NCBI GenBank assembly: GCA_903898755.1
Contig: CAIUGT010000125.1
Span: 2,386 to 66,385, forward strand
Direction of reading: 5' to 3'
Source of the DNA: an uncultured bacterium
GTDB lineage: Bacteria; Planctomycetota; Phycisphaerae; Phycisphaerales; SM1A02
Length of the DNA: 64,000 bases
Positions within the stretch are counted from its first letter, which is position 1, and every line of letters starts with the position of its first letter. The notes beneath the pieces were generated by a model. That model searched no databases and was not told where the DNA came from. It worked only from the letters and a program-made list of their open reading frames with translations. Both the position numbers and the translations under genes were made by a program. Positions 9,738 to 29,504 of this stretch are shown here, piece by piece.

Positions 9738-9939
9738 GAAGCGAAAGCTCGCCCATTATATAAAGTCCGAATAATTACACTGATTTTGATCAATTTTATA
9801 AGTATTGAGTAAAATAATCAGGAATCCGCCTTGCAAGCAAGAGCTCACCCGCTACAATTTAAGAGAATAATATCTTTTTATCTGTATATAAAGAGTCAGA
9901 ATAAGTTTGCCGTCAATACAACTTTTTGAAAGGTCGCAC

Positions 9940-10647
9940 ATGGAACCAATTACTTTAACGCCCGCAAATTCCGTGGGTCAATGGGCTGCTTCTTCGCCGG
10001 CCGCTGCCCGCACCCTAGCTGACATTGGTCTTGATATTTGCTGTGGCGGAAAACGTGCGCTGCTCGATGCGTGCCGTGAAAAAAATATGGATCCATCCGA
10101 TGTGGTGCAAAAAGTGTGCGCGGCACAAAATGCGCGCCAGGCTGATGGAGAAAGTGATCCAGCTCTCATGCCATTAGCAGAGTTAACACAGCACATTGTG
10201 GATACGCATCATGCGTATTTGCGACAAGCGTTGCCTCGTATCGAATATTGGATAGAAAAAATGGTCAAGGCTCATGGCGACAAGAATCCATCTTTCAGCG
10301 AATTGCTTGAGGTGTTTAAGGGTTTGCATATTGAAATGCAAACACACATGGACAAAGAGGAAAATATTTTGTTCCCAATGGCGGCGGCTATGGAATGCGG
10401 TATTCGACCCGCAATGAATTTAATGTATCCCGTGGCGTGCATGGAGCAAGATCACCAAGAAGCTGGTTTGGCTCTTGCTCGGATCAAGGAACTCACAAGA
10501 AGTTTTTCTGCACCGCCCAACGCGTGCACGACATGGCGAGCAGCCTATTCAGCATTGGCAGAATTAGATGCAGACATGCACCGCCATGTTCATAAAGAAA
10601 ATAATGTTTTATTTCCACGCATTATTGAAATGCAAAAAATGAATTGA
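9940..10647 (+). CDS. ric: Iron-sulfur cluster repair di-iron protein (RIC; YtfE/ScdA family)
   Basis: It has an N-terminal ScdA-type domain with DICCGG, then a hemerythrin-like domain with His/Glu ligands (HHAYL, HMDKEENILFP, HQEAG, HVHKENNVLFP). ATG 9940 is preferred over TTG 9907. Confidence 0.85.
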   Translation: MEPITLTPANSVGQWAASSPAAARTLADIGLDICCGGKRALLDACREKNMDPSDVVQKVCAAQNARQADGESDPALMPLAELTQHIVDTHHAYLRQALPRIEYWIEKMVKAHGDKNPSFSELLEVFKGLHIEMQTHMDKEENILFPMAAAMECGIRPAMNLMYPVACMEQDHQEAGLALARIKELTRSFSAPPNACTTWRAAYSALAELDADMHRHVHKENNVLFPRIIEMQKMN

Positions 10648-10689
10648 ACACTGCTCAAGTTGAAAATTGAAATCAAAACAAGAACGCAT

Positions 10690-13600
10690 ATGAACAAGCC
10701 TTTACCAATGGTTTCCCGGAGAAACTTTCTAAGCACTCTTGCCGCCACAAGCATTAGTTCGTTGGCTATCAGTAGGCATGCAATGGCTGCCATTGGCGCA
10801 TTGACGCCCATGGATGTCGCCAATCCATTAGCCGCATATCCAAACCGTGATTGGGAAAAGGTGTATCGCAATCTGTATAAACATGACTCTTCATTTGTGT
10901 TCATGTGCGCGCCCAACGACACGCATAATTGTTTGTTGCGGGGATTTGTGAAGAACGGCGTGGTGACTCGTATTGGCCCAAGTTGGGGCTACAACAAGGC
11001 CACCGATCTAGCAGGAAATAAAGCAAGCGCGCGTTGGGATCCGCGATGTTGTCAAAAAGGAATCGCGCTTGCCAGAAGATTTTATGGCGACCGCCGCATT
11101 AAAGAACCATTAGTTCGTCAAGGAATGCTTGATTGGCTTCAAGCGGGCAAGCCGCGCGGTACTGATGGAGCCATCGATCCGAAATATTTAAAGCGTGGCC
11201 ACGATTCATTTGTGCCAGTGACTTGGGAAAAAGCGTTCGAAGCGACCGCTGAAACAATGGTGGACATTGCCAAGACCTACAACGGAAAACAAGGCCAAGA
11301 AAAATTACTTGCGCAGGGATATGACCCGCTCATGGTTGAAACAACAGGCGGCGCGGGCACGCAAGTGATGAAGTTTCGTGGCGGTATGCCGCTCCTTGGA
11401 TTGACGCGCGTGATGGCGCAGTACCGTCTTGCCAACAGCATGGCGCTTTTGGACAGCACGTTGCGCGGAGTCGGCCCCGACCAAGCGGTTGGTGCGCGCG
11501 GCTTTGATAATTATTCATGGCACACGGATCTTCCGCCAGGACACCCAATGGTCACTGGTCAGCAGACCAATGATTTTGATTTGTGCATGGTTGAACACAG
11601 CAAAATGGTGATTGTGTGGGGCATGAATTGGATCGCAACCAAAATGCCGGACAGTCATTGGCTGACGGAAGCCAGAATGAAGGGCACGAAAGTTGTTGTG
11701 ATTGCTTGCGAATATTCCGCCACGGCAAACAAGTCAGACGAGTTGATTGTTGTGCGGCCTGGAACCACGCCCGCGCTTGCGCTTGGATTGGCGCAAGTCA
11801 TCATGAGTGAAAAACTCTATGACGACGCTTTTGTGCGCCGCCACACGGATCTACCGCTATTGATTCGTTTGGATAACGGAAAAATGTTGCGCGCCGCGGA
11901 GGTGTTCCCTGGATATCAAGCCGCGGTATTGACCAATGGAATCACCGTAGTCAAAACAGGTGAAAAACCACCAAGTACGTTGGAGCAATCGGGTGCGTTT
12001 GTGTCGCAGGAAAAACGAGCGGAGTGGGGCGACTATGTTGCTTATGACGATGTGGCCAAAAAGCCAGTGGCGGTGAATCGCGACCAGGTTGGTGACAAGG
12101 CAAACGCGCTTCCCAAAGGGTTGGCGTTGGACATTCGCACAAAAATAAAGTTGGCCGATGGCGGAGAAGTGGAATGCGCCACCGTTTGGAACGCCACCAA
12201 GCAAATGCTTGACAACGCGTACACGCCCGATTCCGTGGAGAAATTAACGTGGGCCAAGGCGGAGGCCATTCAAAGCTTGGCGCGACAAATTGCGGACAAC
12301 GCTGGCGGCGTTGCTTTCGCATGCGGCATGGGTCCCAATCAGTTCTTCAACAGCGACCTGAAGGACCGCGGCGTGTTTCTTGTTGCCGCGCTCACTGGCA
12401 ATGTTGGTAAAAAAGGCGGAAATGTAGGCAGTTATGCGGGTAATTATCGCATTGCCTATATGAGCGGCTTGCCGCAGTACATCTTGGAAAATCCATTTGA
12501 TATTGAACTTGATCCCACAAAGCCAGCGCGCTCCAAGCGTTATTGGAAACCTGAAAGCGTTCATTACTTCAACCACGGCGACATGATTTTGCGCAAAGGC
12601 AAAGCTGTGTTGACAGGCAAGACGCATTTGCCAACGCCGACAAAGTCAGTGTGTGTTTCCAACTCCAACAGTTTGATTGGAAATGTAAAGGGGCACTATG
12701 ACTTTGTTATTAACACATTGAAGCGCGTGGAATTGATCGCCATCAATGAGTGGTGGTGGACCGCTTCCTGCGAATATGCGGATGTTGTATTTCCTGTCGA
12801 TAGTTGGGCGGAGTTTCGCTATCCAGACATGACCATGTCGGTCACGAATCCGTTTGTGCAAGTGTTTCCAACTTCTCCGTTGCCGCGCATTCACAACACG
12901 CGCGGAGATATTGAAGTGGCGAAGGGTCTTGGCGAAGCCATTGGAAAACTGACAAATGATTCTCGGCATGCGGACTATTGGAAATTCATCAATGAAAAAG
13001 ATCGCGCGTTGCCTTATTTGCAACGCATGATGGATCAGTCCAACGCCATGCGTGGTTACAAAATTGAGGCCTTGGAAAAGAATGCGGAGCTTGGCATTCC
13101 GGCGATTCTGAACACGCGCACTTATCCAAAGTATTCAAGCTTTGAGCAAATTGAGGAGTCAAAGCCGTGGTATACAAAAACTGGTCGTTTGGAATTTTAT
13201 CGCGAAGAAGCTGAATTCCAAGATGCCGGAGAGAACGTGGTCATTCATCGCGAGCCGATTGACTCCACTCCATACGATCCGGCTTCATTGGTGTCGGCGC
13301 CACATCCATTGTTGCGGCCCAAGTCACCAGAAGATTATGGAACAAAAACTTCCGATCGCGACGCTGATTCGCGTCAAGCACGGCATGTGATTTACACCAC
13401 TGATGAGTTGCTTCAAACAGCGCATCCCTTGACCGAGCATGATCCGAATTATCGATTTGTTTTTCACACGCCAAAATATCGCCATGGAGCACACAGCACT
13501 CCCGTTGATCTAGACATTATCGCGGTTTGGTTTGGTCCCTTTGGCGACATGCATCGCCGCGACAAGCGAATGCCATTTGTGAATGAGGCATACGTAGATA

Positions 13601-14232
13601 TCAATCCCCTTGATGGCAAGTCGCTTGGTGTTGAGGATGGTGATTATGTTTTCATTGACGCCGATCCGCACGATCGACCGTTCAAAGGTTGGCAAAATAA
13701 TCCAGAGGGATACGCCGTGGCGCGTTTGATTGCGCGCGCCCGTTATTACCCAGGCACGCCGCGTGGAATTACACGCATGTGGCACAACATGTATGGCGCA
13801 ACATTTAGTTCCGTGGCGGCGGCGAAGGTGCGAGCGGATGGTTTGGCAAAATCCAAGGATACGAATTATCAAGCCAGTTTCCGCTCTGGTTCGCATCAAA
13901 GTTGCACGCGTGGTTGGCTCAAACCAACATGGATGACGGATTCATTGGTGGTGAAGGAGTTGCTGAATCAAGGCATTACTCAAGGATTTGTTCCTGACGT
14001 GCATTGTCCGGTCGGTGCTCCTCGTGAATCAATGGTGCGCATCACCAAGGCGGAAAATGGCGGACTCGGTGGCGAAGGAATTTGGTCACCAGAGACTCTT
14101 GGATATCGCCCCACGTATGAAAGTGACGCGATGAAAAAATTTATTCTTGGAGGATTTGTGACTCGTTCATTCATGGCGAATGTCACAAGCCCGCTTGTTG
14201 TTCCAATCACAAAAATTACTTCTCCAATGTAA
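10690..14232 (+). CDS. Tat-exported molybdopterin oxidoreductase alpha subunit, NarG/NxrA-like (type II DMSO reductase family), 1180 aa
   Basis: It has the twin-arginine signal [33 protein letters not shown] and the FS0 region [19 protein letters not shown]...RCCQKG. Segments resemble NarG, for example [21 protein letters not shown] and [32 protein letters not shown]. The length is in the NarG/NxrA range. Confidence 0.85.
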
Positions 14233-14241
14233 GAAGCCACC

Positions 14242-15369
14242 ATGCCAAAGATTTTCAATAAACAGATTGATCGTGAAATGGATTATCCGTACGAAACCTC
14301 GCCACCGAAGCGGCAGGTGGCGTACATATTTGACACCAACAAATGTATCGCGTGTCAGACCTGCACCATTGCGTGCAAGACATGTTGGACATCCGGCCGC
14401 GGGCAAGAACATATTTTCTACAACAACGTGGAGACCAAGCCATACGGAAGTTATCCAATGGGTTGGGATACAAAATTGCAAGAGCAGCGTGTGCAGGTGA
14501 CGTGGAACAACAAGCGTTTAGAGTCGCCAACTATTTTCGAAGGCAATTCACCCAATTCTCCGCCAGATGGTTGGCGGCCAACAAGTGAGGATTATGCGCA
14601 TCCCAATCATGGTGAAGATGACATCTCTGGCATCATCGAGAAGACCGCGCACTTTGCAGGTGAGCACCCCATGTGGATGTTTTATTTGGCGCGCATTTGT
14701 AACCATTGCACAACTCCCGCGTGCCTGGCGGCTTGTCCGCGCAAGGCCATTTACAAGCGTGAAGAAGATGGCATTGTGTTGGTGGATCAGGAACGCTGCC
14801 GTGGATATCAAGAATGTGTTCGCGCGTGTCCATATAAGAAAGTTTTTTACAACGCAGTGAGTCGCGCCAGCGAAAAATGCATTGGCTGTTTTCCGCGTGT
14901 GGAGCAAGGCTTGCAGGCTTTGTGCGTGGAAGGCTGTATTGGGAAAATCCGCATGCATGGTTTTATTTCAACGCAGACACCTCCGCGCGAGGACAATCCG
15001 CTTGACTACATCATTCACATTCGAAAGTTGGCGCTTCCGCTGTATCCACAATTTGGAACTGGTCCAAATGTCTATTACGTGCCGCCGATCCATGTACCGA
15101 TTGGGTTTTGTGAGCAACTCTTTGGTCCAGGTGTGGAGGAGTCTGTTTCGTTGTATCGCAAACTGAAAGACGATCCAAAATTGCTTGGAGCATTGTTCCT
15201 GTTTGGTTCCACCGATCACATCATTGAGCATTTTGAGGTGAAGGACCAAGTTGCAATTGGTTGGAATGCCAAAGGTGATGAAGTTTCTCGCGTTCCATTC
15301 ACTGAATACACCTATGTGCGCCCACACCATGACAAAGAATTTCAGGTGTACAGGCATAACACGGCTTGA
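14242..15369 (+). CDS. NarH/NxrB-like iron-sulfur beta subunit
   Basis: There are four Cys groups: CIACQTCTIAC, CNHCTTPACLAACP, CRGYQECVRACP (an aromatic residue sits where NarH has Trp, implying a 3Fe-4S cluster) and CIGCFPRVEQGLQALCVEGC. The gene starts 10 nt after the alpha stop. Confidence 0.85.
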   Translation: MPKIFNKQIDREMDYPYETSPPKRQVAYIFDTNKCIACQTCTIACKTCWTSGRGQEHIFYNNVETKPYGSYPMGWDTKLQEQRVQVTWNNKRLESPTIFEGNSPNSPPDGWRPTSEDYAHPNHGEDDISGIIEKTAHFAGEHPMWMFYLARICNHCTTPACLAACPRKAIYKREEDGIVLVDQERCRGYQECVRACPYKKVFYNAVSRASEKCIGCFPRVEQGLQALCVEGCIGKIRMHGFISTQTPPREDNPLDYIIHIRKLALPLYPQFGTGPNVYYVPPIHVPIGFCEQLFGPGVEESVSLYRKLKDDPKLLGALFLFGSTDHIIEHFEVKDQVAIGWNAKGDEVSRVPFTEYTYVRPHHDKEFQVYRHNTA

Positions 15370-15407
15370 TTGCACAGCATGTTTTACTTTTGAAATAAGG
15401 AATTCAC

Positions 15408-16355
15408 ATGACATACAAAAATACTTTAAGCAGCAAACGAATGCTTCCGCTGCACGGATTGGCGGGCGCGGTGTTTTTGGTGATTGCGGCGGCGTTTGTT
15501 TGGCGCATGCCATCCAATTCCAAAGCCACAGATACCACGAAAGATATTGTGGCGGTCAGTCCATTACATGTGACAAAAATCGCAACCCTTGGTGCGCCGG
15601 ATCCAACGGCTTCCTATTGGAAATCCGCGACCGTTGCGGTGGTTCCATTGCTTCCGCAAACAATCACCAAGCCCACAATTGAAAAATCGGAAATACATTC
15701 AATGGAAGTCCAGGCCGTGAGTGACGGGACAAATATTGCATGGCGACTTGCGTGGGCGGATCCCGAGGCCGACTCCGCGGTGGATTCTGGAAAATTTTCA
15801 GATGCGTGCGCCATTCAATTTCCAATTGGAACCAATACAAATTTAATGATGGGTCATGGTGGCGAAGTTGAGATTTTCTTGTGGAAAGCGATTTGGCAGC
15901 GAGATGTGAATCTTGGATTTCAAGATATTCGCGACCTGCATCCAAATGCATGGACCGATTTGTATTGGTTTTCCAAAGGTGGACTTGAAACAAATATAAA
16001 AGACGCGTTCGCGGATCCGCGAGCCAAGCAATGGATGATTGCGTTGACCGCGGGAAATCCAATGAGTCAAATGGATCGCAAACAACCTTGCGAAGAATGC
16101 ACGGCGAAAGGCTTCGGAACAATCGCCACACAGGCACAGCAATCATCACAAGCTGTTGGTGTCTGGGCTGGCGGGCAATGGGCCGTTGTTTTTCAACGAC
16201 CCCTTCGCACAGAAGATGTCACGGATTATCAATTTGGACTTCACGCATCAGAGTTTGCGCTTGCTGTCTGGCAAGGTAGCGCCAAGCAAGCTGGCGGTCG
16301 CAAGCAATTTTCTGGATGGGTTCCATTTGAATTGCTAAACGGAAATATCAAATGA
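15408..16355 (+). CDS. EB_dh-type (ethylbenzene dehydrogenase gamma-like) haem-b subunit
   Basis: An N-terminal signal/anchor (LHGLAGAVFLVIAAAFVW) is followed by VQAVSDGTNIAWRLAWADPEADSAVDSGKFSDACAIQFP, which is characteristic of the gamma subunits of periplasmic Nar-type enzymes (NxrC/SerC/ClrC/DdhC/EbdC). Confidence 0.7.
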   Translation: MTYKNTLSSKRMLPLHGLAGAVFLVIAAAFVWRMPSNSKATDTTKDIVAVSPLHVTKIATLGAPDPTASYWKSATVAVVPLLPQTITKPTIEKSEIHSMEVQAVSDGTNIAWRLAWADPEADSAVDSGKFSDACAIQFPIGTNTNLMMGHGGEVEIFLWKAIWQRDVNLGFQDIRDLHPNAWTDLYWFSKGGLETNIKDAFADPRAKQWMIALTAGNPMSQMDRKQPCEECTAKGFGTIATQAQQSSQAVGVWAGGQWAVVFQRPLRTEDVTDYQFGLHASEFALAVWQGSAKQAGGRKQFSGWVPFELLNGNIK

Positions 16356-17080
16356 ACGACTCGATCAAATCCTATGCCACAGCCGATCTTTTGATGCTTC
16401 TGACAAGCGCGATTGCTGGAAAGCAATCAGAGGATCAAAATCCAAGCCATGATGAACTGCAGGAGTTGGTTCGTTATGCGCAATTGCCAGACGATGTGAT
16501 AGGCCCCATGCACGAAGCGCTGCGCGCATTTTATGAAGCGCCTGCGAATGAATTGCATATGGAACGAGGCAGATTGTATTCGGCGGCGCAAGCGTGTCCG
16601 CCATACGAGGCCGCGTATGTGCGCCGCGACAAGGGTGCATTACTAGCGGATATCGCTGGATTTTACCATGCATTTGGTTTGCATTTGGATGAGCAGGTCC
16701 ATGAACGTCCCGACCATATTGTGATGGAATTGGAATTTCTTGCGTTGGCATTTGTCATGCTTGGAAATGCGCAAAAAGATGAAAACAGCGATGGTCTGGC
16801 GGTGTGTTGGCACTCCATTGCATTGTTTGCCAACGAACATCTTGGTGAGTGGATTGAATCGTTTGCCACAGTGCTCAGCGCGACAAGCACGGATGACGTG
16901 CATCCACGTATAGCCCATGCGGTTGGAGTTTTCTGGGAAGCCTTGCGCGAGCGGGAGTGTTGGTCAAAACCAAGTTGCCCTGGAATTGCTCCAGATATTC
17001 AGAACAAAAGTGAACATGACAGTCAATGGGATTGCGTTGGCGCCCAAGAACATGTTTGTGAAAAGGAGATTCAATCATGA
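16352..17080 (+). CDS. TorD/NarJ-family redox-enzyme maturation chaperone
   Basis: It overlaps the gamma gene by ATGA. It has the family motif PDHIVMELEFLALAFVML and lacks a signal peptide. Confidence 0.7.
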   Translation: MNDSIKSYATADLLMLLTSAIAGKQSEDQNPSHDELQELVRYAQLPDDVIGPMHEALRAFYEAPANELHMERGRLYSAAQACPPYEAAYVRRDKGALLADIAGFYHAFGLHLDEQVHERPDHIVMELEFLALAFVMLGNAQKDENSDGLAVCWHSIALFANEHLGEWIESFATVLSATSTDDVHPRIAHAVGVFWEALRERECWSKPSCPGIAPDIQNKSEHDSQWDCVGAQEHVCEKEIQS

Positions 17081-17859
17081 GTGAAGAAGATCATCAATTT
17101 TCCCAAGCACAGCAGGCAACTCACCCCGCGCGGAAAATTGTCTTTGGCAGCCTGATTAGCTTAAGTGTTTTGCCCATTGCAATGCTGCTTATTGCCGTGC
17201 TGTGGAGCGTAAAGCCAATGATTAAACAGTCATCTGCGCAAAATGATACGGCGCAAGAAAGTGCGGCCACCAACGGACATGTGAAAGGTGCGCTGATTAA
17301 TTTTGCGACATGCGCAACGTGCCACGGCGTGAATGGTGAAGGAAATGCAAAAATGCATGCCCCGCGAATAGCGGATCTTCCGCCTTGGTATGTAAAAGCG
17401 CAACTAGAAAAATTTCAAAACGGTTTACGCGGCGTGAATCCAACTGATGTCTATGGCCAGACCATGCGGCCAATGGCGATGCAAGTGCAGGATGTGGACG
17501 CGATGGCGAAGATTGTCTCCGATTTAGAGGGACATCGCGGACGATTTGCGCCCACGGGACCAGTCATTACAGGCAATGTTGATCATGGTCGAGTTTTATA
17601 TGCACAGTGCGTGGCTTGTCATGGCGTAAATGGCTTGGGTGAGCGTGGCGTGAAAAGTCCCACTATTGCGGGGCAAGAAAGTTGGTACGTGCAACAACAG
17701 TTAATGAATTTCCGAAGTGGTACGCGTGGAATTTCTACTGCGGACCGGGAGGGAAATTTAATGAGGATCATTGTCGCTCCTCTCAGTGATGCAGACATCG
17801 CTGACTTGGCGATTTTTGTGAACGCAATGGGTAACAAAAAAACTGTGACACCACAATGA
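17077..17859 (+). CDS. Membrane-anchored dihaem c-type cytochrome (class I, c4-like)
   Basis: ATGA overlap with the chaperone gene. There is one N-terminal TM helix (IVFGSLISLSVLPIAMLLIAVLW). Two CxxCH sites (CATCH, CVACH) are each followed by a P-x-I-A...WY...QL..F..G.RG module. Confidence 0.85.
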   Translation: MSEEDHQFSQAQQATHPARKIVFGSLISLSVLPIAMLLIAVLWSVKPMIKQSSAQNDTAQESAATNGHVKGALINFATCATCHGVNGEGNAKMHAPRIADLPPWYVKAQLEKFQNGLRGVNPTDVYGQTMRPMAMQVQDVDAMAKIVSDLEGHRGRFAPTGPVITGNVDHGRVLYAQCVACHGVNGLGERGVKSPTIAGQESWYVQQQLMNFRSGTRGISTADREGNLMRIIVAPLSDADIADLAIFVNAMGNKKTVTPQ

Positions 17860-19679
17860 ACAAAGTTACTGGCGTGCCACACACATTTCATATACCGGTG
17901 ATGGGTTTGGCCTACACCATTGATACCCCGATCAAGGTCGCGCGATTTGGAATTGCGTCTGTGATTTCGATTATCGAAGATCGATTGGTAGAGATGATGA
18001 GAAGTTATTACTACCCCACACTCAACTTGGAATATAAACCCATTTCGGGACACGAGGACGATTCTCGAGCAAAACGAATCACTGATTATTTAAATCTGGT
18101 GAACACGATTGTGCAGGGCCAATTTGAAAAATTAAGAAACGCAACGTTTGAGGCTGGTTCTGAAATCGTAAAATATTTTGAATTGCTTCCCGACGACAGC
18201 TCTTTGAAATTGTTGTACCGAAAAATGATGCGGTGTAGCGACGAGCTTGAAAAGTTGGAAATGGCGAATTTTTTACGCAAGCACATGCGTCCCGGAAGCA
18301 TTGATGTGAACATCATGACAAAATTGGATCGGGAAAAGTATGTCAAAAATGGCGATGGGGTTGTGAAAGAAGATGCTTCGGATGCGGTGGCGGCGCTTCG
18401 TGGATACGCAAAAAGCGACCTTTCAAATTCATCGGTCATTTTTTCGGCTGGGATCAATCCAAGACTTTTTAATTACTTGGCCAGCCGCAAGGAATTCGAA
18501 ATGAACTCGGACGGTGAATTCACAAAGAAAGTTGTTGTGAAGGTGAGTGATTATCGTTCTGCGTTGATACAGGGGAAATATCTTGCCAAGCGCGGTATTT
18601 GGGTTAGTGAATTCAGAATTGAATCCGGACTGAATTGTGGCGGGCACGCATTCGCGACCGATGGTTTTTTGCTTGGCCCAATTCTTGAGGAATTTAAAAC
18701 CAAGAAGCAAGAACTCATTGACACGTTGTTTCAAACATACGGCATTTCAATTTTGAAAAAGGGCTCCGTGCAATGTGAGCAAGCTCCTCCAATTCGAATT
18801 TCGGTGCAAGGCGGAATTGGCACCCGTGATGAGGATCTTTTTTTACACCAGTATTACAAGGTCCAAAGCACCGGATGGGGAACCCCATTTTTACTAGTGC
18901 CCGAAGCGACAACGGTTGACGAAGCAACCTTGAAACTATTAAGCGCCGCGCAAGAAAAAGATATCGTGTTGAGCCATAACTCACCATTGGGGGTTCGTTT
19001 TTATTCGCTCAAGGGAACGACGGCCGACGCGGAAAAATCATTTCGTATTTGCACTGGAAAACCGGGAAGTCCCTGCACCGAAAAACATTTGGCATTCAAC
19101 ACGGAATTCACAAATGAACCTATTTGCACGGCTTCTCAAAAATATCAAAAACTTAAAATCGAGCAGTTGCACACATTTCAATTGCCTCAACTCGAACATC
19201 AATCCCGTTTGAATTCCATATTGGGTAAGGAATGTCTGTGTGTTGGACTGAGCAATTCCGCGGCAATTACTTACAACAAGGTGTTCATAAAAAAATTAAA
19301 CGCCGTCACGATTTGCCCAGGTCCAAACATTGTTCATTTTTCCAAAGTGGTATCGCTGCGAACCATGGTTAATCATATTTACGGAAGAGGCAAAAGTTTG
19401 GTTTCTCCAGGCAGGCCGCACATGTTTATTGCGGAATTACGTTTATACGTCGCATATCTAAAGGAGCAATTCCAAGGTGGCATTCGTGTTGAAGATCACG
19501 TTCAACATAAAAAATACCTGGCGTCTTTTTATAGCAATCTGAAGAGCGGTATTTCGTATTACAAAAATTTGCCTGGCGTTTCGAAACCTTGTGGAGATCC
19601 TTTTCACAGGGATCTGGCGCGTGCTGAAATGGAATTGGATTCTTTGAACCTGCAATATGCAACGCCTTTGAATGCGTGA
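17856..19679 (+). CDS. Uncharacterised 607-aa cytoplasmic protein; possible divergent FMN TIM-barrel (NMO/FabK-like) with a Cys-containing C-terminal region
   Basis: ATGA overlap with the cytochrome c gene. No signal peptide or TM helix. Motifs: ESGLNCGGHAF (18621-), VQGGIGT (18807-) and GWGTPFLLVPEAT (18873-). The coding call is confident; the function is not. Confidence 0.45.
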   Translation: MNKVTGVPHTFHIPVMGLAYTIDTPIKVARFGIASVISIIEDRLVEMMRSYYYPTLNLEYKPISGHEDDSRAKRITDYLNLVNTIVQGQFEKLRNATFEAGSEIVKYFELLPDDSSLKLLYRKMMRCSDELEKLEMANFLRKHMRPGSIDVNIMTKLDREKYVKNGDGVVKEDASDAVAALRGYAKSDLSNSSVIFSAGINPRLFNYLASRKEFEMNSDGEFTKKVVVKVSDYRSALIQGKYLAKRGIWVSEFRIESGLNCGGHAFATDGFLLGPILEEFKTKKQELIDTLFQTYGISILKKGSVQCEQAPPIRISVQGGIGTRDEDLFLHQYYKVQSTGWGTPFLLVPEATTVDEATLKLLSAAQEKDIVLSHNSPLGVRFYSLKGTTADAEKSFRICTGKPGSPCTEKHLAFNTEFTNEPICTASQKYQKLKIEQLHTFQLPQLEHQSRLNSILGKECLCVGLSNSAAITYNKVFIKKLNAVTICPGPNIVHFSKVVSLRTMVNHIYGRGKSLVSPGRPHMFIAELRLYVAYLKEQFQGGIRVEDHVQHKKYLASFYSNLKSGISYYKNLPGVSKPCGDPFHRDLARAEMELDSLNLQYATPLNA

Positions 19680-19682
19680 TCC

Positions 19683-20360
19683 ATGAAAGACAAATCCAAT
19701 TCTCATATTGTGAACGCCTTGACGCACTTGATTTCATGCGGCGATATACCCGATGATCCGCCACAGAATCCCATGGATTTATTTCAGGAATGGTTTACGA
19801 ATGCAGAGGATTGCGGTCAATATGTAAACCCAAATGCGATGACTGTTGCAACAAGCACATTGGATGGCGCGCCTTCGGCCCGAATTGTTCTATGCAAGTG
19901 TTTAGAAACGCAGCCTCCAGCGTTGGTGTTTTTCACAAGTTATGAAAGTAGAAAGGGTAGGGAAATAGAAGCAAATCCCAGGGCTGCGGCGGTGTTTCAT
20001 TGGCCGCACGCCAAGCGGCAGGCGCGCGTGGAAGGAGTTGTGGAGCGCGTCTCGTCTCAAGAAAGTGACCAGTATTTTAGTTCGCGACCACTCATCTCAC
20101 GCATCGGTAGTTCGGTCAGCCCACAAAGTCAGGTGATTTCTTCAAGAGCAAGCTTGGTTGCATCGGCGATTAAATTAGCGGGTCAAGCCACTCTTGCGGG
20201 AAAGCTTCCGCGTCCAGCGAATTGGGGTGGGTACAGAATTCATATTCGTGTTGTAGAACTTTGGTCGGCGCGTGAGGGCCGACTGAATGATCGCGTACGG
20301 TGGATACACGATGACTCAGATTCCACCACAAGTTGGAAAGTGACGCGGCTTGGATCTTGA
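19683..20360 (+). CDS. pdxH: Pyridoxamine 5'-phosphate oxidase
   Basis: PNPOx hallmarks are present: NAMTVATSTLDGAPSARIVLCK, FFTSYESRKGREIEANPRAAAVFHW, QARVEGVV, SDQYFSSRP and C-terminal PANWGGYRI...VELW...RLNDRVRW. The gene starts 3 nt after the upstream stop. Confidence 0.85.
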   Translation: MKDKSNSHIVNALTHLISCGDIPDDPPQNPMDLFQEWFTNAEDCGQYVNPNAMTVATSTLDGAPSARIVLCKCLETQPPALVFFTSYESRKGREIEANPRAAAVFHWPHAKRQARVEGVVERVSSQESDQYFSSRPLISRIGSSVSPQSQVISSRASLVASAIKLAGQATLAGKLPRPANWGGYRIHIRVVELWSAREGRLNDRVRWIHDDSDSTTSWKVTRLGS

Positions 20361-20451: not shown

Positions 20452-20631
20452 TTATTTACTTTTTTGGCAGTCAGATTTTGTATGGATCAATGGCGCATCG
20501 TCTAGGAGCATGCGAATTGCTGGCGTATTCAGATCCTCATATTGATCGTTGTGGGCCGCCCACATAAATGCCAGCACGGCCGCTGCGGCTATGAAAAGTG
20601 CCACTGGAATGGCTATATAAATCAGAATCAT
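20452..20631 (-). CDS. ccoS: cbb3 oxidase maturation protein CcoS (59 aa)
   Basis: Hand translation gives MILIYIAIPVALFIAAAAVLAFMWAAHNDQYEDLNTPAIRMLLDDAPLIHTKSDCQKSK. This has one TM helix plus the CcoS signature W-x5-Q-[FY]-[DE]-DL-x2-P-x2-R-x-L-x-DD. Its ATG overlaps the ccoI TGA (ATGA). It is absent from the ORF track. Confidence 0.8.
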   Translation of the reverse strand: MILIYIAIPVALFIAAAAVLAFMWAAHNDQYEDLNTPAIRMLLDDAPLIHTKSDCQKSK

Positions 20632-23318
20632 GCGTGCACCTTGGTTGGAGATGTGTTGATTTCCAAGGCATTCTTCGCTGCAATTGGTGTCGTTGATCTT
20701 GCCGCAGACGAATTTGTTTTTTTCGTGTGAGATTGAATAATCGTCGCTGCGTTGTGAATTTCAAATCGTGGCATGCGCAACGCAACAGCCGTTACGGTCA
20801 AGCCACTGAGCGGCATCAGCACCGCAGCGATGAGTGGATTGATGACACCTGTTGCGGCAAGGGCGCCGCCGACAATGTTGTATGCCAGACTGATCGCAAA
20901 ATTCACATGTATTGTTTTCATGGTTCGTCGTGCGCCATCAAGCAGTGAAACAACTTGGCCAAGTCCGCCGCCTGTCAGCGCCACATCCGCATGTTCAAGA
21001 GTGACTCGCGCGCCTTGGCGTACCGCAATGCCGACATCCGCAGCGGCCATTGCGGGTAAATCATTCACACCGTCGCCAATCATGACAATCGGACCAACGT
21101 GGTGGCTTGCCCGGCATGCTGCAACAATTTCAACCTTGCGCTCGGGTGTGCATGCGCCCCACACTTGTTGATCAGGAATCTTTAACTGACAACCAATATT
21201 CAACGCAATTTCTGTGACGTCACCCGAGGCCATCCACATATTCCAACCGCGATTCGCTAGGTTGTGAACCAGTTCAAGTGCGTCGCTTCGAAGGGGATCA
21301 CCCACGCCAATCGCGGCGCATGTGACATGATCAATTGTCACGAAAACTGGTGAAAACCCCTCGCGAATCATGTCGTGTGCGTGTGCAATCACAACGGCGT
21401 TGCTGATGTCATCGTGAATAGATGAAAATTTTTGGTTGCCAACTTTCACTTCATGACCATTCACGATTCCAGAAATTCCGCCGCCAATCGTTTCGTGAAC
21501 GTCGGTCACGATTGCGCCCAGTTGATAATGTTGCGCAATCGCTTTCGCAATTGGATGCGTGCTTCGCGCCTCAAGAGCCGCCGCAAAATTCAAATCGGTT
21601 GATTCACCACATTCACGCAAGACGCGCATGCTGCCCTCGGTCACCGTGCCGGTTTTGTCCAAGATGATTGTTCCGCTGCGCGCTAGGCGCTCAAATACAT
21701 CACCACCGCGAATTAAAATTCCAATACGCGCGGCTTTTCCAAGCGCCGCCACCATGGTGAGCGGGGTCGCAAGACCGAGAGCGCACGGACACGTGACCAC
21801 CAACATTGCGATCACAATAGAGAGGGCCCGTGTTGGATCAATAAACCACCACGCACACCCTGTGATTGTGGTGACAATGATGACTGCAAGTAAAAACCAA
21901 CCTGCGATTCGGTTTGCAAATTCAACCACGCGTGGTCGTTCACCCGCCGCATTTTCCACCATGCGCGCAATGGCGCCCGCACGCGTTTCCACGCCGGAGG
22001 TTGTCACAAGAACACGGACTGGATGTTGCTCTAACAATCGAACGCCCGCAAAAATGGTTTCGCCACATTGCACCATCACTGGTCGCGATTCACCAGTGAG
22101 TAGTTGCATGTCAAAATTGGCGGCGCTATTCACAAGTGTTCCGTCGGCGCACACGGATTCACCCGCGGAAATTTCAACTATGTCACCAGGGCGCAAAGCC
22201 TCTGTTGGAATTTCTTCTATCGATTCAGCGTTTGATTCTGTTCGTATTTCGGTTGTCGTATCAATTGACTTCAAATTGTTGTTCATCACGCGCCGAGCGG
22301 TTTGTGGAACCAGCGCGCAAATCAATTCAAGATCATGCCGTGCCGATCGTTGTTGACGAAACTGCACAAATCGTCCAACAAGAAGCAAAAATACGAGCAT
22401 GGAGACGCTTTCAAAATAAACACCCGGACGATTTGCCGCCGTCATTGCGACGCCACCTAAAAGACCCGCCAGCAACGCAAGAGCAATAGGTAAGTCCATG
22501 TGCGGACTACGCGCGCGGATTGCGTTGAAGGCATTGGTCAGGAAAAGTTTTCCAGGCCAAAACACCGCCACCGTAGCCAACGCCACGCTTGTCCACTGCA
22601 GAAATTGACGCGTTGAATCATCCATCCAAGAAAATTGCGCGCCGTACAACGCGAAGGCAATCGCCATGACATTGCCACTGATGGCCCCGGCCACCGCGAT
22701 ATGAACCAACCACGCGCGATCCTGTCTACGCCACTCACTGCGCGAAGCGAGCGTTCCAATTGGTCGTACTTCATATCCCAGCGAAGCGATGCGCGTGGCA
22801 ATTGCGGACAAAGTTGTTTCGGTTGCTAGCCATTCCAGTGCGATAACGGAACGGCCAAGATCAACACGCGCGCTAAGAAGTCCTTGTTGCAAACGCGGAA
22901 GTGATTCCAGCAACCAAAGACATGCGCCGCATTTCAAACCATCAAGACGAAGTTCCGCGCACAGTCGGTCGTTATCCAGTTGTTGAACGTGTCTTTGCTG
23001 AAAATCCGCGTGGTCCAAATACAACAAAGAACCCTTTATTTGCGGTCTATTCGGCAAAAATCCATTGTCTTGTTGAAGCTTGTAATAGCCTTCCAATCCG
23101 CATTGGTGAAGCATGTGCCACACGGCTTCGCATCCTGTGCAACAAAATAATTCAGTCCTTGTTTGTGTGTTGGCTTGTGTATGCAAAGTTTCAGAGAACT
23201 GCAGGTTGTTGGTTGTGACAGCATTCGTCTTGCCAGAATTGAGTTGATGTTCGCTGAAAGCGTTTGAAACAGGTAACCCGCAATGCGCGCAAGAATTGGT
23301 CTTGTTCACAAATGTCAT
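20628..23318 (-). CDS. ccoI: Copper-translocating P1B-type ATPase, CcoI/FixI
   Basis: It has the N-terminal CAHCGLP and CCTGCEAVWHML motifs, the TM metal site CPC (VVTCPCALGLATP), DKTGT, and the GDGVND hinge. It sits inside the cco maturation cluster. Confidence 0.9.
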   Translation of the reverse strand: MTFVNKTNSCAHCGLPVSNAFSEHQLNSGKTNAVTTNNLQFSETLHTQANTQTRTELFCCTGCEAVWHMLHQCGLEGYYKLQQDNGFLPNRPQIKGSLLYLDHADFQQRHVQQLDNDRLCAELRLDGLKCGACLWLLESLPRLQQGLLSARVDLGRSVIALEWLATETTLSAIATRIASLGYEVRPIGTLASRSEWRRQDRAWLVHIAVAGAISGNVMAIAFALYGAQFSWMDDSTRQFLQWTSVALATVAVFWPGKLFLTNAFNAIRARSPHMDLPIALALLAGLLGGVAMTAANRPGVYFESVSMLVFLLLVGRFVQFRQQRSARHDLELICALVPQTARRVMNNNLKSIDTTTEIRTESNAESIEEIPTEALRPGDIVEISAGESVCADGTLVNSAANFDMQLLTGESRPVMVQCGETIFAGVRLLEQHPVRVLVTTSGVETRAGAIARMVENAAGERPRVVEFANRIAGWFLLAVIIVTTITGCAWWFIDPTRALSIVIAMLVVTCPCALGLATPLTMVAALGKAARIGILIRGGDVFERLARSGTIILDKTGTVTEGSMRVLRECGESTDLNFAAALEARSTHPIAKAIAQHYQLGAIVTDVHETIGGGISGIVNGHEVKVGNQKFSSIHDDISNAVVIAHAHDMIREGFSPVFVTIDHVTCAAIGVGDPLRSDALELVHNLANRGWNMWMASGDVTEIALNIGCQLKIPDQQVWGACTPERKVEIVAACRASHHVGPIVMIGDGVNDLPAMAAADVGIAVRQGARVTLEHADVALTGGGLGQVVSLLDGARRTMKTIHVNFAISLAYNIVGGALAATGVINPLIAAVLMPLSGLTVTAVALRMPRFEIHNAATIIQSHTKKTNSSAARSTTPIAAKNALEINTSPTKVHA

Positions 23319-24136
23319 TGCTCACTCATTTCTTTACAACACGCGTGCGGACCATTTGCGATGTTTGAAAGGGTCGAATTTTTCACCTCATCACCAACGG
23401 CCCCCGCGCGAATGTCTTGTGAGTGATTGTTGTTATTTTTTTCAGACAATCGTGTTGCCACAACTTCAGCAAGCGGTGCGCGAACGCCAGCGGTATACAC
23501 GCCAACGGCAATCATGAAAGCGCCAGCAATTGCCGCTAAAATTCTTCGCTTTTGCCCGCCAAGCGACGCAATACCCGCGCCAACAAGCGCCAGAATTGGA
23601 ACAGTTCCCAACCAAAATGCGGCCATGACCAACGCGCCCTCGACGACACGCCCAGTGCCCGCAGCCACCGCTGCAAATGCCCAAAGCCATCCACAGGGAA
23701 GCAGCGGTGTGGCCAATCCAATCACCAATGCGCGTGGAGTTGGCTGCATTGTTGCGGCCACTTTGTGTATTGCGCCAAGCGAGCGCTTCATCCAAAGTGG
23801 CAAAGGCACACGACCTGAATCAATTCCCGCGGATTGAAGCAGCATGCCAACTCCAACAAGTGCCACCGCAATACCAGCTGCAATGGCGGCGATGTGTTGC
23901 ACACCAACAAGCCCGCCGCCAGAATTCAGTAGCACTCCGCATGCGCCGGCGAGAGCGCCAACAAAAACATAGGAGGCAAATCGTGAGACGTGATAAACGC
24001 AACTCGCTATGGAACTTGCACGGCCGGAGCACTGACCAACTCCGCCACAGAATGCGGCGATTCCGCCACACATGCCTGCGCAGTGCGCGCTGCCCACCAG
24101 GCTGGCAAATAAAACACTCGCCAACAACGCAATCAT
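23315..24136 (-). CDS. DsbD_2/TauE-like membrane protein with HCxGMCGG motif (cco-cluster associated)
   Basis: The N-terminus is MIALLASVLFASLVGSAHCAGMCGGIAAFCGG and the protein is polytopic. ATGA overlaps occur on both sides, with fixH and ccoI. Confidence 0.6.
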   Translation of the reverse strand: MIALLASVLFASLVGSAHCAGMCGGIAAFCGGVGQCSGRASSIASCVYHVSRFASYVFVGALAGACGVLLNSGGGLVGVQHIAAIAAGIAVALVGVGMLLQSAGIDSGRVPLPLWMKRSLGAIHKVAATMQPTPRALVIGLATPLLPCGWLWAFAAVAAGTGRVVEGALVMAAFWLGTVPILALVGAGIASLGGQKRRILAAIAGAFMIAVGVYTAGVRAPLAEVVATRLSEKNNNNHSQDIRAGAVGDEVKNSTLSNIANGPHACCKEMSEQ

Positions 24137-29412: not shown

Positions 29413-29504
29413 ATAGATTGAAATTTAAAATGTTCGGATTGCAATTGAAGCGGTCTTCAATTACCGAAACATGGTCTGAAATCTCGCCTTCCAAAGGAAT
29501 GCCC

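What the first reader, a model, noticed from the sequence alone, without database searches (positions are those of the whole stretch)
9940..17859. Tat-exported NarG/NxrA-sized molybdoenzyme operon (A-B-C-D plus anchored dihaem cytochrome c) with no quinol-oxidising subunit
Seen:
- The 1180-aa alpha subunit has a twin-arginine signal (SRRNFL).
- The beta subunit is NarH-like with four Cys groups.
- The gamma subunit is EB_dh-type, followed by a TorD/NarJ chaperone and a TM-anchored dihaem cytochrome c.
- Gamma, chaperone, cytochrome and the next gene are chained by ATGA overlaps (16352, 17077, 17856).
- A RIC (NO-damage repair) gene ends 43 nt upstream of the alpha ATG.
- The window holds no NarI-like dihaem b subunit, NarK transporter or chlorite dismutase.

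Known:
- Periplasmic type II DMSO-reductase-family enzymes with EB_dh gamma subunits exchange electrons with c-type cytochromes rather than quinones. Examples are Ser, Clr, Ddh, Ebd, Pcr and Nitrospira/anammox-type NXR.
- From memory, their alpha subunits are roughly 900-980 aa, except NarG and NxrA, which exceed 1100 aa.

Inference: this is either a periplasmic nitrite/nitrate oxidoreductase of the Nitrospira/anammox type in an organism that otherwise looks like a PVC-type aerobe, or a Nar-sized enzyme acting on an unknown substrate.
Basis: partly seen in the sequence, partly recalled or inferred. Interest (0 to 1): 0.75.

Follow-up and report, generated by a model that had tools for sequence, protein, structure and literature searches.

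The report
Periplasmic nitrate/nitrite molybdoenzyme operon, Beggiatoa type
This is an intact operon for an exported molybdenum enzyme that interconverts nitrate and nitrite; it belongs to a widespread, long-known but never purified sister group of the nitrifiers' nitrite oxidoreductase and most likely works as a cytochrome-c-fed nitrate reductase.

Summary
Window 9940-20360 (+) is one tightly packed gene string: RIC, Tat-signal alpha (1180 aa), four-cluster beta, EB_dh haem-b gamma, NarJ/TorD-type chaperone, membrane-anchored dihaem cytochrome c4, a conserved 607-aa protein and pdxH.

The alpha, beta and gamma subunits have as best solved relative the Kuenenia NXR (7B04). However, alpha is only 39% identical to KsNxrA. 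In an NJ tree it falls in a sister clade (95-100% bootstrap), not inside the anammox/Nitrospinota NXR clade. That sister clade holds Beggiatoa, Thioploca, Thiomargarita, Pirellulaceae, Phycisphaerae, Myxococcota, Acidobacteria and Bacteroidota (57-73% identity; 585 GTDB species loci).

This lineage was described in 2007 and is often reported in MAGs; its direction of catalysis is unproven.

Context favours nitrate reduction:
- RIC lies in the operon.
- RIC, Rrf2 regulators and quinol:cytochrome c modules (ACIII, Rieske/cyt b) recur beside homologous operons.
- The two closest relatives sit among NrdD, NnrS, an FNR-type regulator and Nap.

The adjacent cbb3 oxidase is unique to this locus, so nitrite oxidation is not excluded.

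Verdict: new member of a known kind, of moderate interest.

The parts
9786..9858 (+). Two sigma-70-like promoter matches in the 200-nt AT-rich gap before RIC; probable operon promoter region
   Evidence: 9/12 matches each; the number of such sites in the region is not above the shuffled expectation, so this is weak. Sequence.
9940..10647 (+). RIC/YtfE-type di-iron protein (repair of iron centres, NO stress); first gene of the string
   Evidence: TIGR03652 228 bits, above the 204.7 cut-off; PF04405 + PF01814. RIC homologues lie within 10 kb of the operon in 11 other loci.
10690..14232 (+). Alpha subunit: Tat-exported Mo-bisPGD catalytic subunit with FS0 [4Fe-4S]
   Evidence: 7B04_B KsNxrA 849 bits over the full length, 39% identity. 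RR motif, [11 protein letters not shown]0 motif and Mo-ligand Asp aligned. Clade placement.
14242..15369 (+). Beta subunit: four Fe-S clusters, no signal peptide (co-exported with alpha)
   Evidence: 7B04_A KsNxrB 332 bits; PF13247; four Cys groups.
15408..16355 (+). Gamma subunit: EB_dh-type haem b protein with an N-terminal hydrophobic signal or anchor
   Evidence: PF09459 84 bits. 7B04_C 70.8 bits with the Met/Lys haem ligands conserved. Hydrophobic segment at residues 11-36.
16352..17080 (+). Delta: NarJ/TorD-type cytoplasmic assembly chaperone
   Evidence: PF02613 61 bits; TIGR03482 55 bits, below cut-off. ATGA overlap with gamma.
17077..17859 (+). Membrane-anchored dihaem cytochrome c4-type protein; proposed redox partner of the gamma haem
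   Evidence: 1ETP cytochrome c4 E 1.6e-16. TM segment 19-50 and two CxxCH motifs. Found only in the window and L001 among 80 loci.
17856..19679 (+). Conserved 607-aa protein of unknown function; start overlaps the cytochrome stop (ATGA)
   Evidence: No Pfam or NCBIfam hit. The 120 best of at least 8000 scored homologues are 67-70% identical. In Bacteroidota it lies next to Rrf2, NorB/NorC-like and RIC genes. Weak fold hint to PfaD/NMO-type FMN barrels.
19683..20360 (+). pdxH (pyridoxamine 5'-phosphate oxidase); last gene of the string, 3 nt after the 607-aa ORF
   Evidence: TIGR00558 205 bits, above cut-off.
20628..29248 (-). Context: cbb3-type cytochrome oxidase cluster (fused CcoN-CcoO, CcoP, CcoG, FixH, DsbD_2-like, CcoI ATPase), convergent with the operon
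   Evidence: Pfam hits. No cbb3 genes lie beside the operon in any of 78 other loci.
29418..29999 (+). Context: Rrf2-family regulator with a C-x7-C-x5-C-x2-H cluster motif; homologues sit directly upstream of alpha in other lineages
   Evidence: PF02082 74 bits. Generic Rrf2, not an NsrR equivalog. 46-52% identical homologues lie next to alpha in Pirellulaceae and others.

Best explanation
The operon encodes a periplasmic, soluble or N-terminally tethered alpha-beta-gamma nitrate/nitrite oxidoreductase. It belongs to the 'Beggiatoa-type' clade, sister to the Nitrospira/Nitrospina/anammox NXRs.

Shown:
- Alpha carries a Tat signal, an FS0 cluster site (3Cys/1Asp), an Asp Mo ligand and the substrate-positioning Asn.
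- Beta has four Fe-S cluster sites.
- Gamma is an EB_dh haem b protein with Met/Lys ligation.
- Delta is the cytoplasmic chaperone.

Inferred:
- Folded alpha-beta is exported by Tat and gamma by Sec.
- The complex exchanges electrons with c-type cytochromes rather than with quinol. Here the partner is the operon's own membrane-anchored cytochrome c4.
- Its main physiological job is respiratory nitrate reduction at low or zero oxygen. The proposed path is quinol, then a quinol:cytochrome c oxidoreductase encoded elsewhere (bc1 or ACIII), then c4, gamma haem b, the beta Fe-S chain, and finally Mo, where nitrate is reduced to nitrite in the periplasm. No nitrate transporter is then needed.
- RIC, and possibly the 607-aa protein, are co-expressed to cope with NO formed from the nitrite produced.
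- Like other NXR/NAR enzymes it is probably reversible in vitro.
For: Identity:
- Full-length matches to KsNxrA, B and C.
- Cofactor motifs conserved.
- A-B-C-D order conserved in most of 80 loci.

Clade:
- NJ tree of 72 taxa with 100 bootstraps: the window sits with Beggiatoa, Thioploca, Thiomargarita, Planctomycetota and others at 96-100% support.
- This clade is sister (95%) to the Kuenenia/Nitrospinota clade.

Direction:
1. RIC is the first gene of the string. RIC lies in the flanks of 11 other loci and Rrf2 regulators in 16.
2. Quinol:cytochrome c modules abut the operon in 13 loci (ACIII ActB) and 4-6 loci (Rieske/cyt b). A cbb3 oxidase does so in 0 of 78.
3. The two nearest relatives (72% identity) lie among anaerobic ribonucleotide reductase NrdD, NnrS, a CRP/FNR regulator, RIC and NiFe hydrogenase (L084), or beside NapAB plus NrdD (L087/L088).
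4. The D-L-P-P motif after the Mo ligand is shared with the more distant type II DMSO-reductase-family outgroup sequences of the tree, not with the NXR clade.
5. Nitrate-respiring sulfur bacteria carry close homologues.
6. Thermogutta terrifontis grows on nitrate with only a deep-branching enzyme of this radiation, encoded next to bc1 (PMC5673643, PMC10732223).
7. The Hydrogenobacter enzyme of the NXR sister clade is a characterised periplasmic NAR (PMC6050957).
8. From my own knowledge: cytochrome c4 haems lie around +240 to +330 mV, below the nitrate/nitrite couple. Cytochrome c4 carries electrons from bc1 to the related selenate reductase SerABC in Thauera selenatis.
Against: - No enzyme of the Beggiatoa-type subclade has been purified or knocked out, so direction rests on context only.
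- Relatives often co-occur with Nap or NarGHI (PMC1951784). That makes a third nitrate reductase look redundant and prompted the original suggestion of nitrite oxidation.
- The sister clade as defined in the literature also contains the true NXR of Ca. Nitrotoga (PMC6050957).
- In this window an operon-encoded c4 and an adjacent cbb3 oxidase would equally serve nitrite oxidation.
- No bc1 or ACIII genes are present in the 64 kb.
- The tree is neighbour-joining only. It lacks Nitrospira, Nitrotoga and Hydrogenobacter sequences, which I could not fetch.
Confidence: 0.58

Rival explanations
1. The complex works physiologically as a nitrite oxidoreductase. Periplasmic nitrite is oxidised to nitrate, and electrons pass from gamma haem b to the tethered cytochrome c4 and on to the neighbouring high-affinity cbb3 oxidase. 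This would give microaerobic lithoheterotrophic energy gain or nitrite detoxification in a non-nitrifier.
For: - The closest solved structure is an NXR, with a shared 3Cys/1Asp FS0 site and a high-potential Met/Lys haem b (PMC8387239).
- An operon-encoded c4 lies next to a complete cbb3 cluster. Cytochrome c4 is a known donor to cbb3 oxidases (own knowledge).
- Kitzinger 2018 notes that members of the sister clade could oxidise nitrite if they have high-potential cytochromes, and Ca. Nitrotoga does so (PMC6050957).
- Relatives co-occur with Nap/Nar, which argues for a non-redundant role (PMC1951784).
Against: - cbb3 adjacency is unique to this locus (0 of 78 other loci), and the two clusters are convergent, not co-transcribed.
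- The nearest relatives sit with strictly anaerobic NrdD and FNR/NnrS/RIC genes.
- Recurrent neighbours are quinol:cytochrome c complexes and NO-stress genes.
- The active-site-adjacent motif differs from that of the proven NXR clade.
- No CO2-fixation or other nitrifier genes occur in the window.
Confidence: 0.25
2. The enzyme reduces another oxyanion (chlorate, perchlorate, selenate) or oxidises a non-nitrogen substrate, as do the Ser/Clr/Pcr/Ddh/Ebd members of the type II family.
For: - Same subunit architecture and the same cytochrome-c wiring as Ser/Clr/Pcr.
- KsNXR-type enzymes are poorly sampled biochemically.
- All NCBIfam hits are far below their cut-offs.
Against: - Only 165 bits to PcrA and 121 bits to EbdA, against 849 bits to NxrA.
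- The substrate Asn, which is Ile in EbdA, is conserved (PMC8387239).
- No chlorite dismutase in the window.
- The clade is present in 585 species from ordinary nitrate-bearing habitats.
- It is linked to RIC, NnrS and Nap, that is, to nitrogen-oxide biology.
Confidence: 0.07

Closest known systems
Kuenenia stuttgartiensis NXR-ABC (PDB 7B04; Chicano et al. 2021, PMC8387239)
   Same: - Alpha, beta and gamma are homologous over their full length (849, 332 and 71 bits).
- Tat signal present.
- FS0 ligated by 3Cys/1Asp, substrate Asn and Asp Mo ligand all conserved.
- Met/Lys haem b in an EB_dh gamma subunit.
- No membrane quinol subunit.
   Different: - Only 39% identity in alpha, and a different clade.
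- W-H-T-D-L-P-P instead of W-H-G-D-Q-A-P next to the Mo ligand.
- No tubule-forming NXR-T in the gene string, and nothing comparable to the 15-gene kustd1699-1713 nxr cluster with its additional proteins (PMC8387239).
- The host is not an anammox bacterium as far as the window shows.
Beggiatoa / Ca. Parabeggiatoa / Thioploca / Thiomargarita 'second NarGH' (Mussmann et al. 2007, PMC1951784) and the NXR-like genes of non-anammox Planctomycetota (Suarez et al. 2023, PMC10732223)
   Same: - Same clade (64-69% identity).
- Same A-B-C-D order.
- Same active-site motifs.
- The direction of catalysis is equally untested.
   Different: - The window adds RIC in front of the core genes and a cytochrome c4, the 607-aa gene and pdxH behind them.
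- Planctomycetota instead have an Rrf2 gene and ACIII genes alongside.
Periplasmic NAR of Hydrogenobacter thermophilus and NXR of Ca. Nitrotoga fabula (sister clade of the Nitrospira/anammox NXRs, Kitzinger et al. 2018, PMC6050957)
   Same: - Tat-exported alpha, with a gamma subunit lacking a transmembrane quinol site.
- Placement outside the 'exclusively NXR' clade, in a group where both directions of catalysis occur.
   Different: I could not obtain these sequences, so how close they are to the window's subclade is unknown. The stated identity of those enzymes to KsNxrA (about 40%) equals that of the window (39%).
Selenate reductase SerABC of Thauera selenatis with cytochrome c4 and bc1 (own knowledge), and the Pcr/Clr enzymes
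   Same: - Type II architecture and a periplasmic location.
- Electrons delivered from a quinol:cytochrome c oxidoreductase through a dihaem c4-type cytochrome. This is the wiring proposed here.
   Different: - Alpha is about 900-980 aa and only distantly related (PcrA 165 bits).
- Different substrates.
Membrane-bound NarGHI of E. coli (PDB 1Q16)
   Same: - Asp-ligated Mo-bisPGD.
- NarH-like four-cluster beta subunit.
- NarJ-like chaperone.
- Alpha of similar size.
   Different: - Faces the cytoplasm and has the dihaem b quinol oxidase NarI.
- FS0 is ligated by 3Cys/1His.
- The TIGR01580 score of the window's alpha is 167, against a cut-off of 1084.
- Needs a NarK transporter.

Membership tests
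Type II DMSO reductase family (Asp-ligated Mo-bisPGD, alpha-beta-gamma plus chaperone) | Alpha with a twin-arginine signal, an N-terminal FS0 cluster motif and an Asp ligand to Mo | tested here: met
   S-R-R-N-F-L. C-x3-D-x3-C plus a distal Cys. The Asp in Y-x4-D aligns with KsNxrA D275.
Type II DMSO reductase family (Asp-ligated Mo-bisPGD, alpha-beta-gamma plus chaperone) | Beta with four Cys groups, EB_dh gamma with Met/Lys haem b, NarJ/TorD-type delta | tested here: met
Type II DMSO reductase family, Ser/Clr/Ddh/Ebd/Pcr subfamily (TIGR03479) | Score above the curated subfamily cut-off | tested here: not met
   302 bits against a cut-off of 985. PcrA 165 bits, EbdA 121 bits.
Periplasmic NXR of the Nitrospira/Nitrospina/anammox type | Alpha branches inside the clade that holds the proven NXRs | tested here: not met
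   In the NJ tree the window lies in the sister clade (95-100% bootstrap). It is 39-42% identical to the Kuenenia/Nitrospinota group, against 57-73% within its own clade. No Nitrospira sequence was available.
Periplasmic NXR of the Nitrospira/Nitrospina/anammox type | FS0 coordinated by 3Cys/1Asp, and a conserved substrate Asn | tested here: met
   C-A-P-N-D-T-H-N-C aligns with KsNxrA C67/N70/D71/C75 (PMC8387239).
Periplasmic NXR of the Nitrospira/Nitrospina/anammox type | Nitrite-oxidising activity in vivo; host is a nitrite oxidiser or anammox bacterium | not testable with these tools
   Uncultured source. The window holds no CO2-fixation, hydrazine or other nitrifier genes, but it covers only 64 kb.
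Beggiatoa-type NXR/NAR-like clade (putative periplasmic NAR) | Alpha within the clade, shared signature motifs, A-B-C-D gene order | tested here: met
Beggiatoa-type NXR/NAR-like clade (putative periplasmic NAR) | Nitrate-reducing activity | not testable with these tools
   No member has been characterised. The inference rests on gene context only.
Membrane-bound NarGHI | NarI dihaem b quinol oxidase, cytoplasmic alpha, narG equivalog score | tested here: not met
   No NarI among the scanned window ORFs. A functional-looking Tat signal is present. TIGR01580 scores 167 against a cut-off of 1084.
(Per)chlorate reductase systems | PcrA/ClrA-like alpha with a chlorite dismutase nearby | tested here: not met
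   PcrA 165 bits only. No chlorite dismutase in the window.

The most novel reading that the evidence does not exclude
The operon is a self-contained nitrite-oxidising module. In this reading, an NXR-like enzyme outside the classical NXR clade hands electrons through its own tethered cytochrome c4 to the neighbouring cbb3 oxidase. An abundant, non-nitrifying lake bacterium would then oxidise nitrite at the oxycline, an unrecognised nitrate-forming guild. The same could hold for the hundreds of Planctomycetota, sulfur bacteria and others that carry the clade.
Probability: 0.15. Interest if true: 0.75.

Novelty: new member of a known kind. Interest (0 to 1): 0.38.

Why it matters
Enzymes of this clade are routinely counted as 'nxrA' or 'narG' in metagenomic nitrogen budgets for oxygen-deficient zones, aquifers and lakes (PMC10359470, PMC10732223). 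Nobody knows in which direction they run. If they reduce nitrate, many 'novel nitrite oxidisers' in MAG surveys are mislabelled. If they oxidise nitrite, nitrate formation is far more widely distributed than nitrifier counts suggest.

This window adds two things:
- A clean, complete example with an in-operon cytochrome c4 and RIC.
- A census of gene neighbours that leans towards nitrate reduction.

It does not settle the question, and the organism is uncultured.

Tried and rejected
- Rfam and tRNA scans of the window found nothing: no Moco riboswitch and no taxonomic marker.
- Exact-sequence look-ups of the window's 607-aa protein and of P0434 were not on record.
- The Hydrogenobacter NAR paper (10.1111/mmi.13756) is not held, so that enzyme is cited only through Kitzinger 2018.
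- Nitrospira, Nitrotoga and Hydrogenobacter NxrA/NarG sequences could not be fetched. The Kuenenia-seeded search returned only hits of 64% identity or more, without Nitrospira labels. The 50%-identity representatives are unnamed or come from other taxa.
- I tested whether the 607-aa protein is a remote homologue of the NMO-family gene found beside Planctomycetales operons. BLASTP gave E 0.075 and hhalign a probability of 0.8%, so this is not supported.
- The AF2 model of the 607-aa protein is poor (pLDDT 57.5), so its PfaD-like Foldseek hits are only a hint.
- I looked by eye for FNR (TTGAT-N4-ATCAA) or E. coli-type NsrR boxes upstream of RIC and found none that was convincing.
- The Rrf2 protein is not an NsrR equivalog by NCBIfam.
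- Promoter and terminator scans are not above the shuffled background.
- Taxonomy could not be resolved. One cluster member of 90% identity or more is labelled 'Actinobacteria bacterium'. I reject that label as a binning error, because the window encodes a porin and O-antigen genes.

Full report
**What is there.** Between 9940 and 20360 on the + strand lie nine genes. The gaps are 43, 9, 38 and 3 nt, and there are three ATGA start/stop overlaps at 16352, 17077 and 17856.

- RIC, 9940-10647: TIGR03652 228 bits, above its cut-off.
- Alpha, 10690-14232: 1180 aa, PF00384.
- Beta, 14242-15369: PF13247.
- Gamma, 15408-16355: PF09459 EB_dh.
- Chaperone, 16352-17080: PF02613.
- Dihaem cytochrome c, 17077-17859.
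- A 607-aa ORF with no family hit, 17856-19679.
- pdxH, 19683-20360.

The alpha N-terminus reads [34 protein letters not shown]. This is a twin-arginine motif, a hydrophobic region and an AxA site. The RR motif aligns with that of nearly all 70 other sequences that cover this region (one reads G-R-T). This argues that the long start is right. Many database gene calls of 1149 aa therefore wrongly begin at Met32.

Beta has four Cys groups. Gamma has one N-terminal hydrophobic segment and keeps the Met and Lys that ligate haem b in Kuenenia NxrC (PMC8387239). The cytochrome has one TM helix and two CxxCH motifs. Its best solved relative is cytochrome c4 (1ETP, E 1.6e-16).

**Surroundings.** Convergent with the operon is a full cbb3 oxidase cluster: CcoI, a DsbD_2-like protein, FixH, CcoG, CcoP and a fused CcoN-CcoO (20628-29248, - strand). 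It is followed by a divergent Rrf2-family regulator gene (29418-29999) with a Cys3-His cluster motif. Upstream are a porin, a YitT membrane protein and a CMD/AhpD-like protein.

The rest of the window (35-64 kb) is polysaccharide biosynthesis. No NarI, NarK or chlorite dismutase was found in the ORFs scanned. No RNA genes were found.

A GTDB species representative, the MAG Loc080925-8m_bin-397 (contig CAJACJ010000518.1), is 97-98% identical to window 726-23886. From my own knowledge, the MAG name points to an 8 m sample of stratified Lake Loclat. Taxonomy remains unresolved.

**What it is related to.** All three structural subunits have the Kuenenia stuttgartiensis NXR (7B04) as best solved relative:
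- alpha 849 bits over the full length;
- beta 332 bits;
- gamma 71 bits.

The next best alpha hits score 165 bits (PcrA), 153 bits (NarG) and 121 bits (EbdA).

Identity to full-length KsNxrA is nevertheless only 39%. In contrast, at least 2603 database proteins match at E below 1e-50 (only the 8000 best candidates were scored), and 585 stretches in the one-genome-per-species GTDB collection encode a relative. The best of these are 57-73% identical. They come from:
- Thioploca, Ca. Parabeggiatoa and Thiomargarita;
- Pirellulaceae (including cultured Stieleria sedimenti and Novipirellula sp. SH528), Phycisphaerae and Singulisphaera;
- Myxococcota, Bdellovibrionota, Acidobacteria and Bacteroidota;
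- a non-anammox-like Brocadiia MAG.

I built a neighbour-joining tree (72 sequences, 1126 columns, Kimura distances, 100 bootstraps).
- The window lies in a clade with all of these relatives (96% support).
- This clade, together with Gaiellaceae and SAR202 sequences, is sister (95%) to the clade that holds Kuenenia/Brocadia NxrA, a Nitrospinota sequence and many MAG proteins.
- More distantly related type II DMSO-reductase-family sequences (unnamed or from Ammonifex, Thermincola, Halorussus and Obscuribacterales) are outgroups.

Clade signatures are clean.
- Both clades share the unusual FS0 motif with Asp (C-x-P-N-D-T-H-x-C) and the substrate Asn described for KsNxrA (PMC8387239).
- Next to the Mo-ligand Asp, the window clade has [17 protein letters not shown], whereas the NXR clade has W-H-G-D-Q-A-P-G-H.
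- D-L-P-P is shared with the more distant outgroup enzymes.

**What is known about this lineage.**
- Mussmann et al. (2007, PMC1951784) found this 'second NarGH' in Beggiatoa. They called it a novel lineage closest to the Kuenenia enzyme and speculated on nitrite oxidation.
- Chicano et al. (2021) include Beggiatoa sp. 4572_84 (my L005) in their alignment as a nitrate reductase related to the NXR clade.
- Kitzinger et al. (2018, PMC6050957) describe a sister clade of the 'exclusively NXR' Nitrospira/Nitrospina/anammox lineage. It mixes a proven NXR (Ca. Nitrotoga), a characterised periplasmic NAR (Hydrogenobacter) and many uncharacterised proteins. They stress that high-potential cytochromes c would be needed for nitrite oxidation.
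- Suarez et al. (2023, PMC10732223) report such genes in non-anammox Planctomycetota. They could not assign a direction, and they place the nitrate reducer Thermogutta terrifontis in the same large clade. Its enzyme is encoded next to bc1 (PMC5673643).
- Surveys of oxygen-deficient zones count such genes as nxrA in Planctomycetota, Marinisomatota and Chloroflexota (PMC10359470).

The finding is thus a new member of a known but biochemically untested kind.

**Which way does it run?** I used gene context across relatives.

*The conserved core.* The A-B-C-D core is conserved. By tblastn, alpha is found in 80 of 80 loci, beta in 74, gamma in 66 and delta in 52; many loci are truncated. The cytochrome c4, the 607-aa gene and pdxH occur only in the window and its near-identical MAG.

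*Flank census.* Within 10 kb of the operon in 78 other species loci:

| Neighbour | Loci |
|---|---|
| RIC | 11 |
| Rrf2 regulators (often divergent and directly upstream of alpha) | 16 |
| ACIII ActB | 13 |
| ACIII ActC | 10 |
| ACIII pentahaem ActA | 5 |
| Cytochrome b (four of these loci also have a Rieske protein; a multihaem cytochrome c lies directly upstream of alpha in seven loci, a GltD-like subunit in five) | 6 |
| cbb3 oxidase | 0 |

*The two closest relatives of alpha (72% identity).*
- The first lies between class III anaerobic ribonucleotide reductase genes, NnrS, a CRP/FNR-type regulator and a monohaem cytochrome c on one side. On the other side are a cytochrome c, RIC and a NiFe hydrogenase (L084; Pfam check).
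- The second lies beside NapAB with NrfD/FeS partners and the same NrdD genes (L087/L088).

*What the context says.* The context is therefore anaerobic nitrogen-oxide respiration and NO stress, with quinol:cytochrome c oxidoreductases as the recurrent electron-transfer neighbours. The cbb3 adjacency in the window looks incidental.

The 607-aa gene, although unique to this operon, points the same way. In Bacteroidota its 68-70% identical homologues sit with Rrf2, NorB/NorC-like proteins, RIC/hemerythrin proteins, PTPS and DGC genes.

**Mechanism proposed.** The cofactor sites and subunit set are shown. The flow of electrons is inferred.
1. Delta holds apo-alpha in the cytoplasm.
2. Alpha-beta with its cofactors is exported by Tat. 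Gamma goes through Sec and either loses its signal or stays anchored by it.
3. Electrons from the quinol pool pass through a bc1- or ACIII-type complex, which is not in the window.
4. They then pass to the tethered c4, to gamma haem b, through FS4 to FS0, and to Mo.
5. At Mo, nitrate is reduced to nitrite in the periplasm, so no NarK is needed.

This is the wiring known for the related selenate reductase, which uses bc1 and cytochrome c4 (own knowledge). Typical c4 potentials lie below the nitrate/nitrite couple, so this direction is downhill.

RIC would protect or repair cytoplasmic Fe-S proteins from NO derived from the nitrite produced. I put this reading at about 0.58.

**Rivals.**
- *Nitrite oxidation to c4 and cbb3, about 0.25.* This is kept alive by the NXR-like FS0 site and the in-operon cytochrome next to an oxidase. 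The redundancy of this enzyme with Nap/Nar in relatives, and the Nitrotoga precedent, also support it.
- *A different substrate, about 0.07.* This is disfavoured by the score gap to Pcr/Ebd, the conserved Asn, the absence of chlorite dismutase and the nitrogen-oxide context.

**Limits.**
- The tree is NJ only and lacks Nitrospira, Nitrotoga and Hydrogenobacter sequences.
- No signal-peptide predictor was available.
- Only 64 kb of the genome is visible.
- The census uses a crude ORF caller and BLAST thresholds.
- The promoter matches are not above background.

**Verdict.** I rate it a new member of a known kind, with interest 0.38. The interest lies in the unresolved direction of a very widespread enzyme clade. 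That question could be tested in cultured Stieleria or Novipirellula strains that carry 65-66% identical operons. Stieleria sedimenti has so far been described only as an aerobic heterotroph, with dissimilatory nitrate or nitrite metabolism untested (PMC9692418).

Noticed in passing
window 17856-19679: The 607-aa ORF, whose start overlaps the cytochrome c4 stop (ATGA), belongs to a very large, highly conserved family without any Pfam or NCBIfam model (the 120 best of at least 8000 scored homologues are 67-70% identical). The named members are Chitinophagaceae and Saprospiraceae. In Bacteroidota the gene lies in islands with Rrf2, NorB/NorC-like, RIC/hemerythrin, PTPS and DGC genes (L081-L083), which suggests an uncharacterised NO-stress protein. 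The AF2 model is poor (pLDDT 57.5), but its only significant PDB fold hits are PfaD/DfnA FMN enoyl reductases, which have NMO-type TIM barrels.
   Followed up: partly
L034, L038, L044 (for example L044:7558-9096, - strand): A genuine NMO-family (PF03060) flavoprotein gene lies beside the Rrf2 gene and the NXR-like operon in Planctomycetales. No detectable sequence homology to the window's 607-aa protein was found (hhalign probability 0.8%).
   Followed up: partly
L022, L038, L044 Rrf2-alpha intergenic regions; window about 29352: Pirellulales loci share an inverted repeat, GAATTGC-N6-GCAATTC, between the divergent Rrf2 gene and alpha. This is a candidate operator. The window has a single GAATTGC half-site and a 14-bp palindrome, AGATATCGATATCT, upstream of its own Rrf2 gene.
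   Followed up: partly
L071, L073, L074, L077-L080 (upstream of alpha): In Acidobacteria, Binatia and a Brocadiia MAG, a seven-haem cytochrome c lies directly upstream of alpha. In five of these seven loci it follows a cytochrome b and a GltD-like NAD(P) oxidoreductase, and in four also a Rieske protein. From my own knowledge, this resembles the anammox R/b complexes.
   Followed up: partly
window 9291-9737: A CMD/AhpD-like gene lies just upstream of RIC. Homologues (39-50% identity) recur within the NXR-like loci L010, L013, L042, L048 and L051.
   Followed up: no
window 26936-29248: CcoN and CcoO are fused into one 770-aa protein. Together with the weak or absent Shine-Dalgarno sequences before the operon genes and a TAAGTTTG (TAnnTTTG-like) element about 35 nt before the RIC start, this hints at Bacteroidota-like expression signals rather than a PVC organism. 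Taxonomy is unresolved.
   Followed up: no
window 10690 versus 10783 (Met32): Most public gene calls for this protein cluster (1149 aa) start at Met32 and omit the Tat signal. Such calls would make the enzyme look cytoplasmic in automated annotation.
   Followed up: yes
window 35169-63854: A large polysaccharide/nonulosonic-acid biosynthesis cluster on the - strand (DegT, PglD-like, NeuB, CMP-sugar cytidylyltransferase, two asparagine-synthase-like amidotransferases, HisF/HisH-like pair, Wzy-like ligase, glycosyltransferases). It is unrelated to the finding.
   Followed up: no
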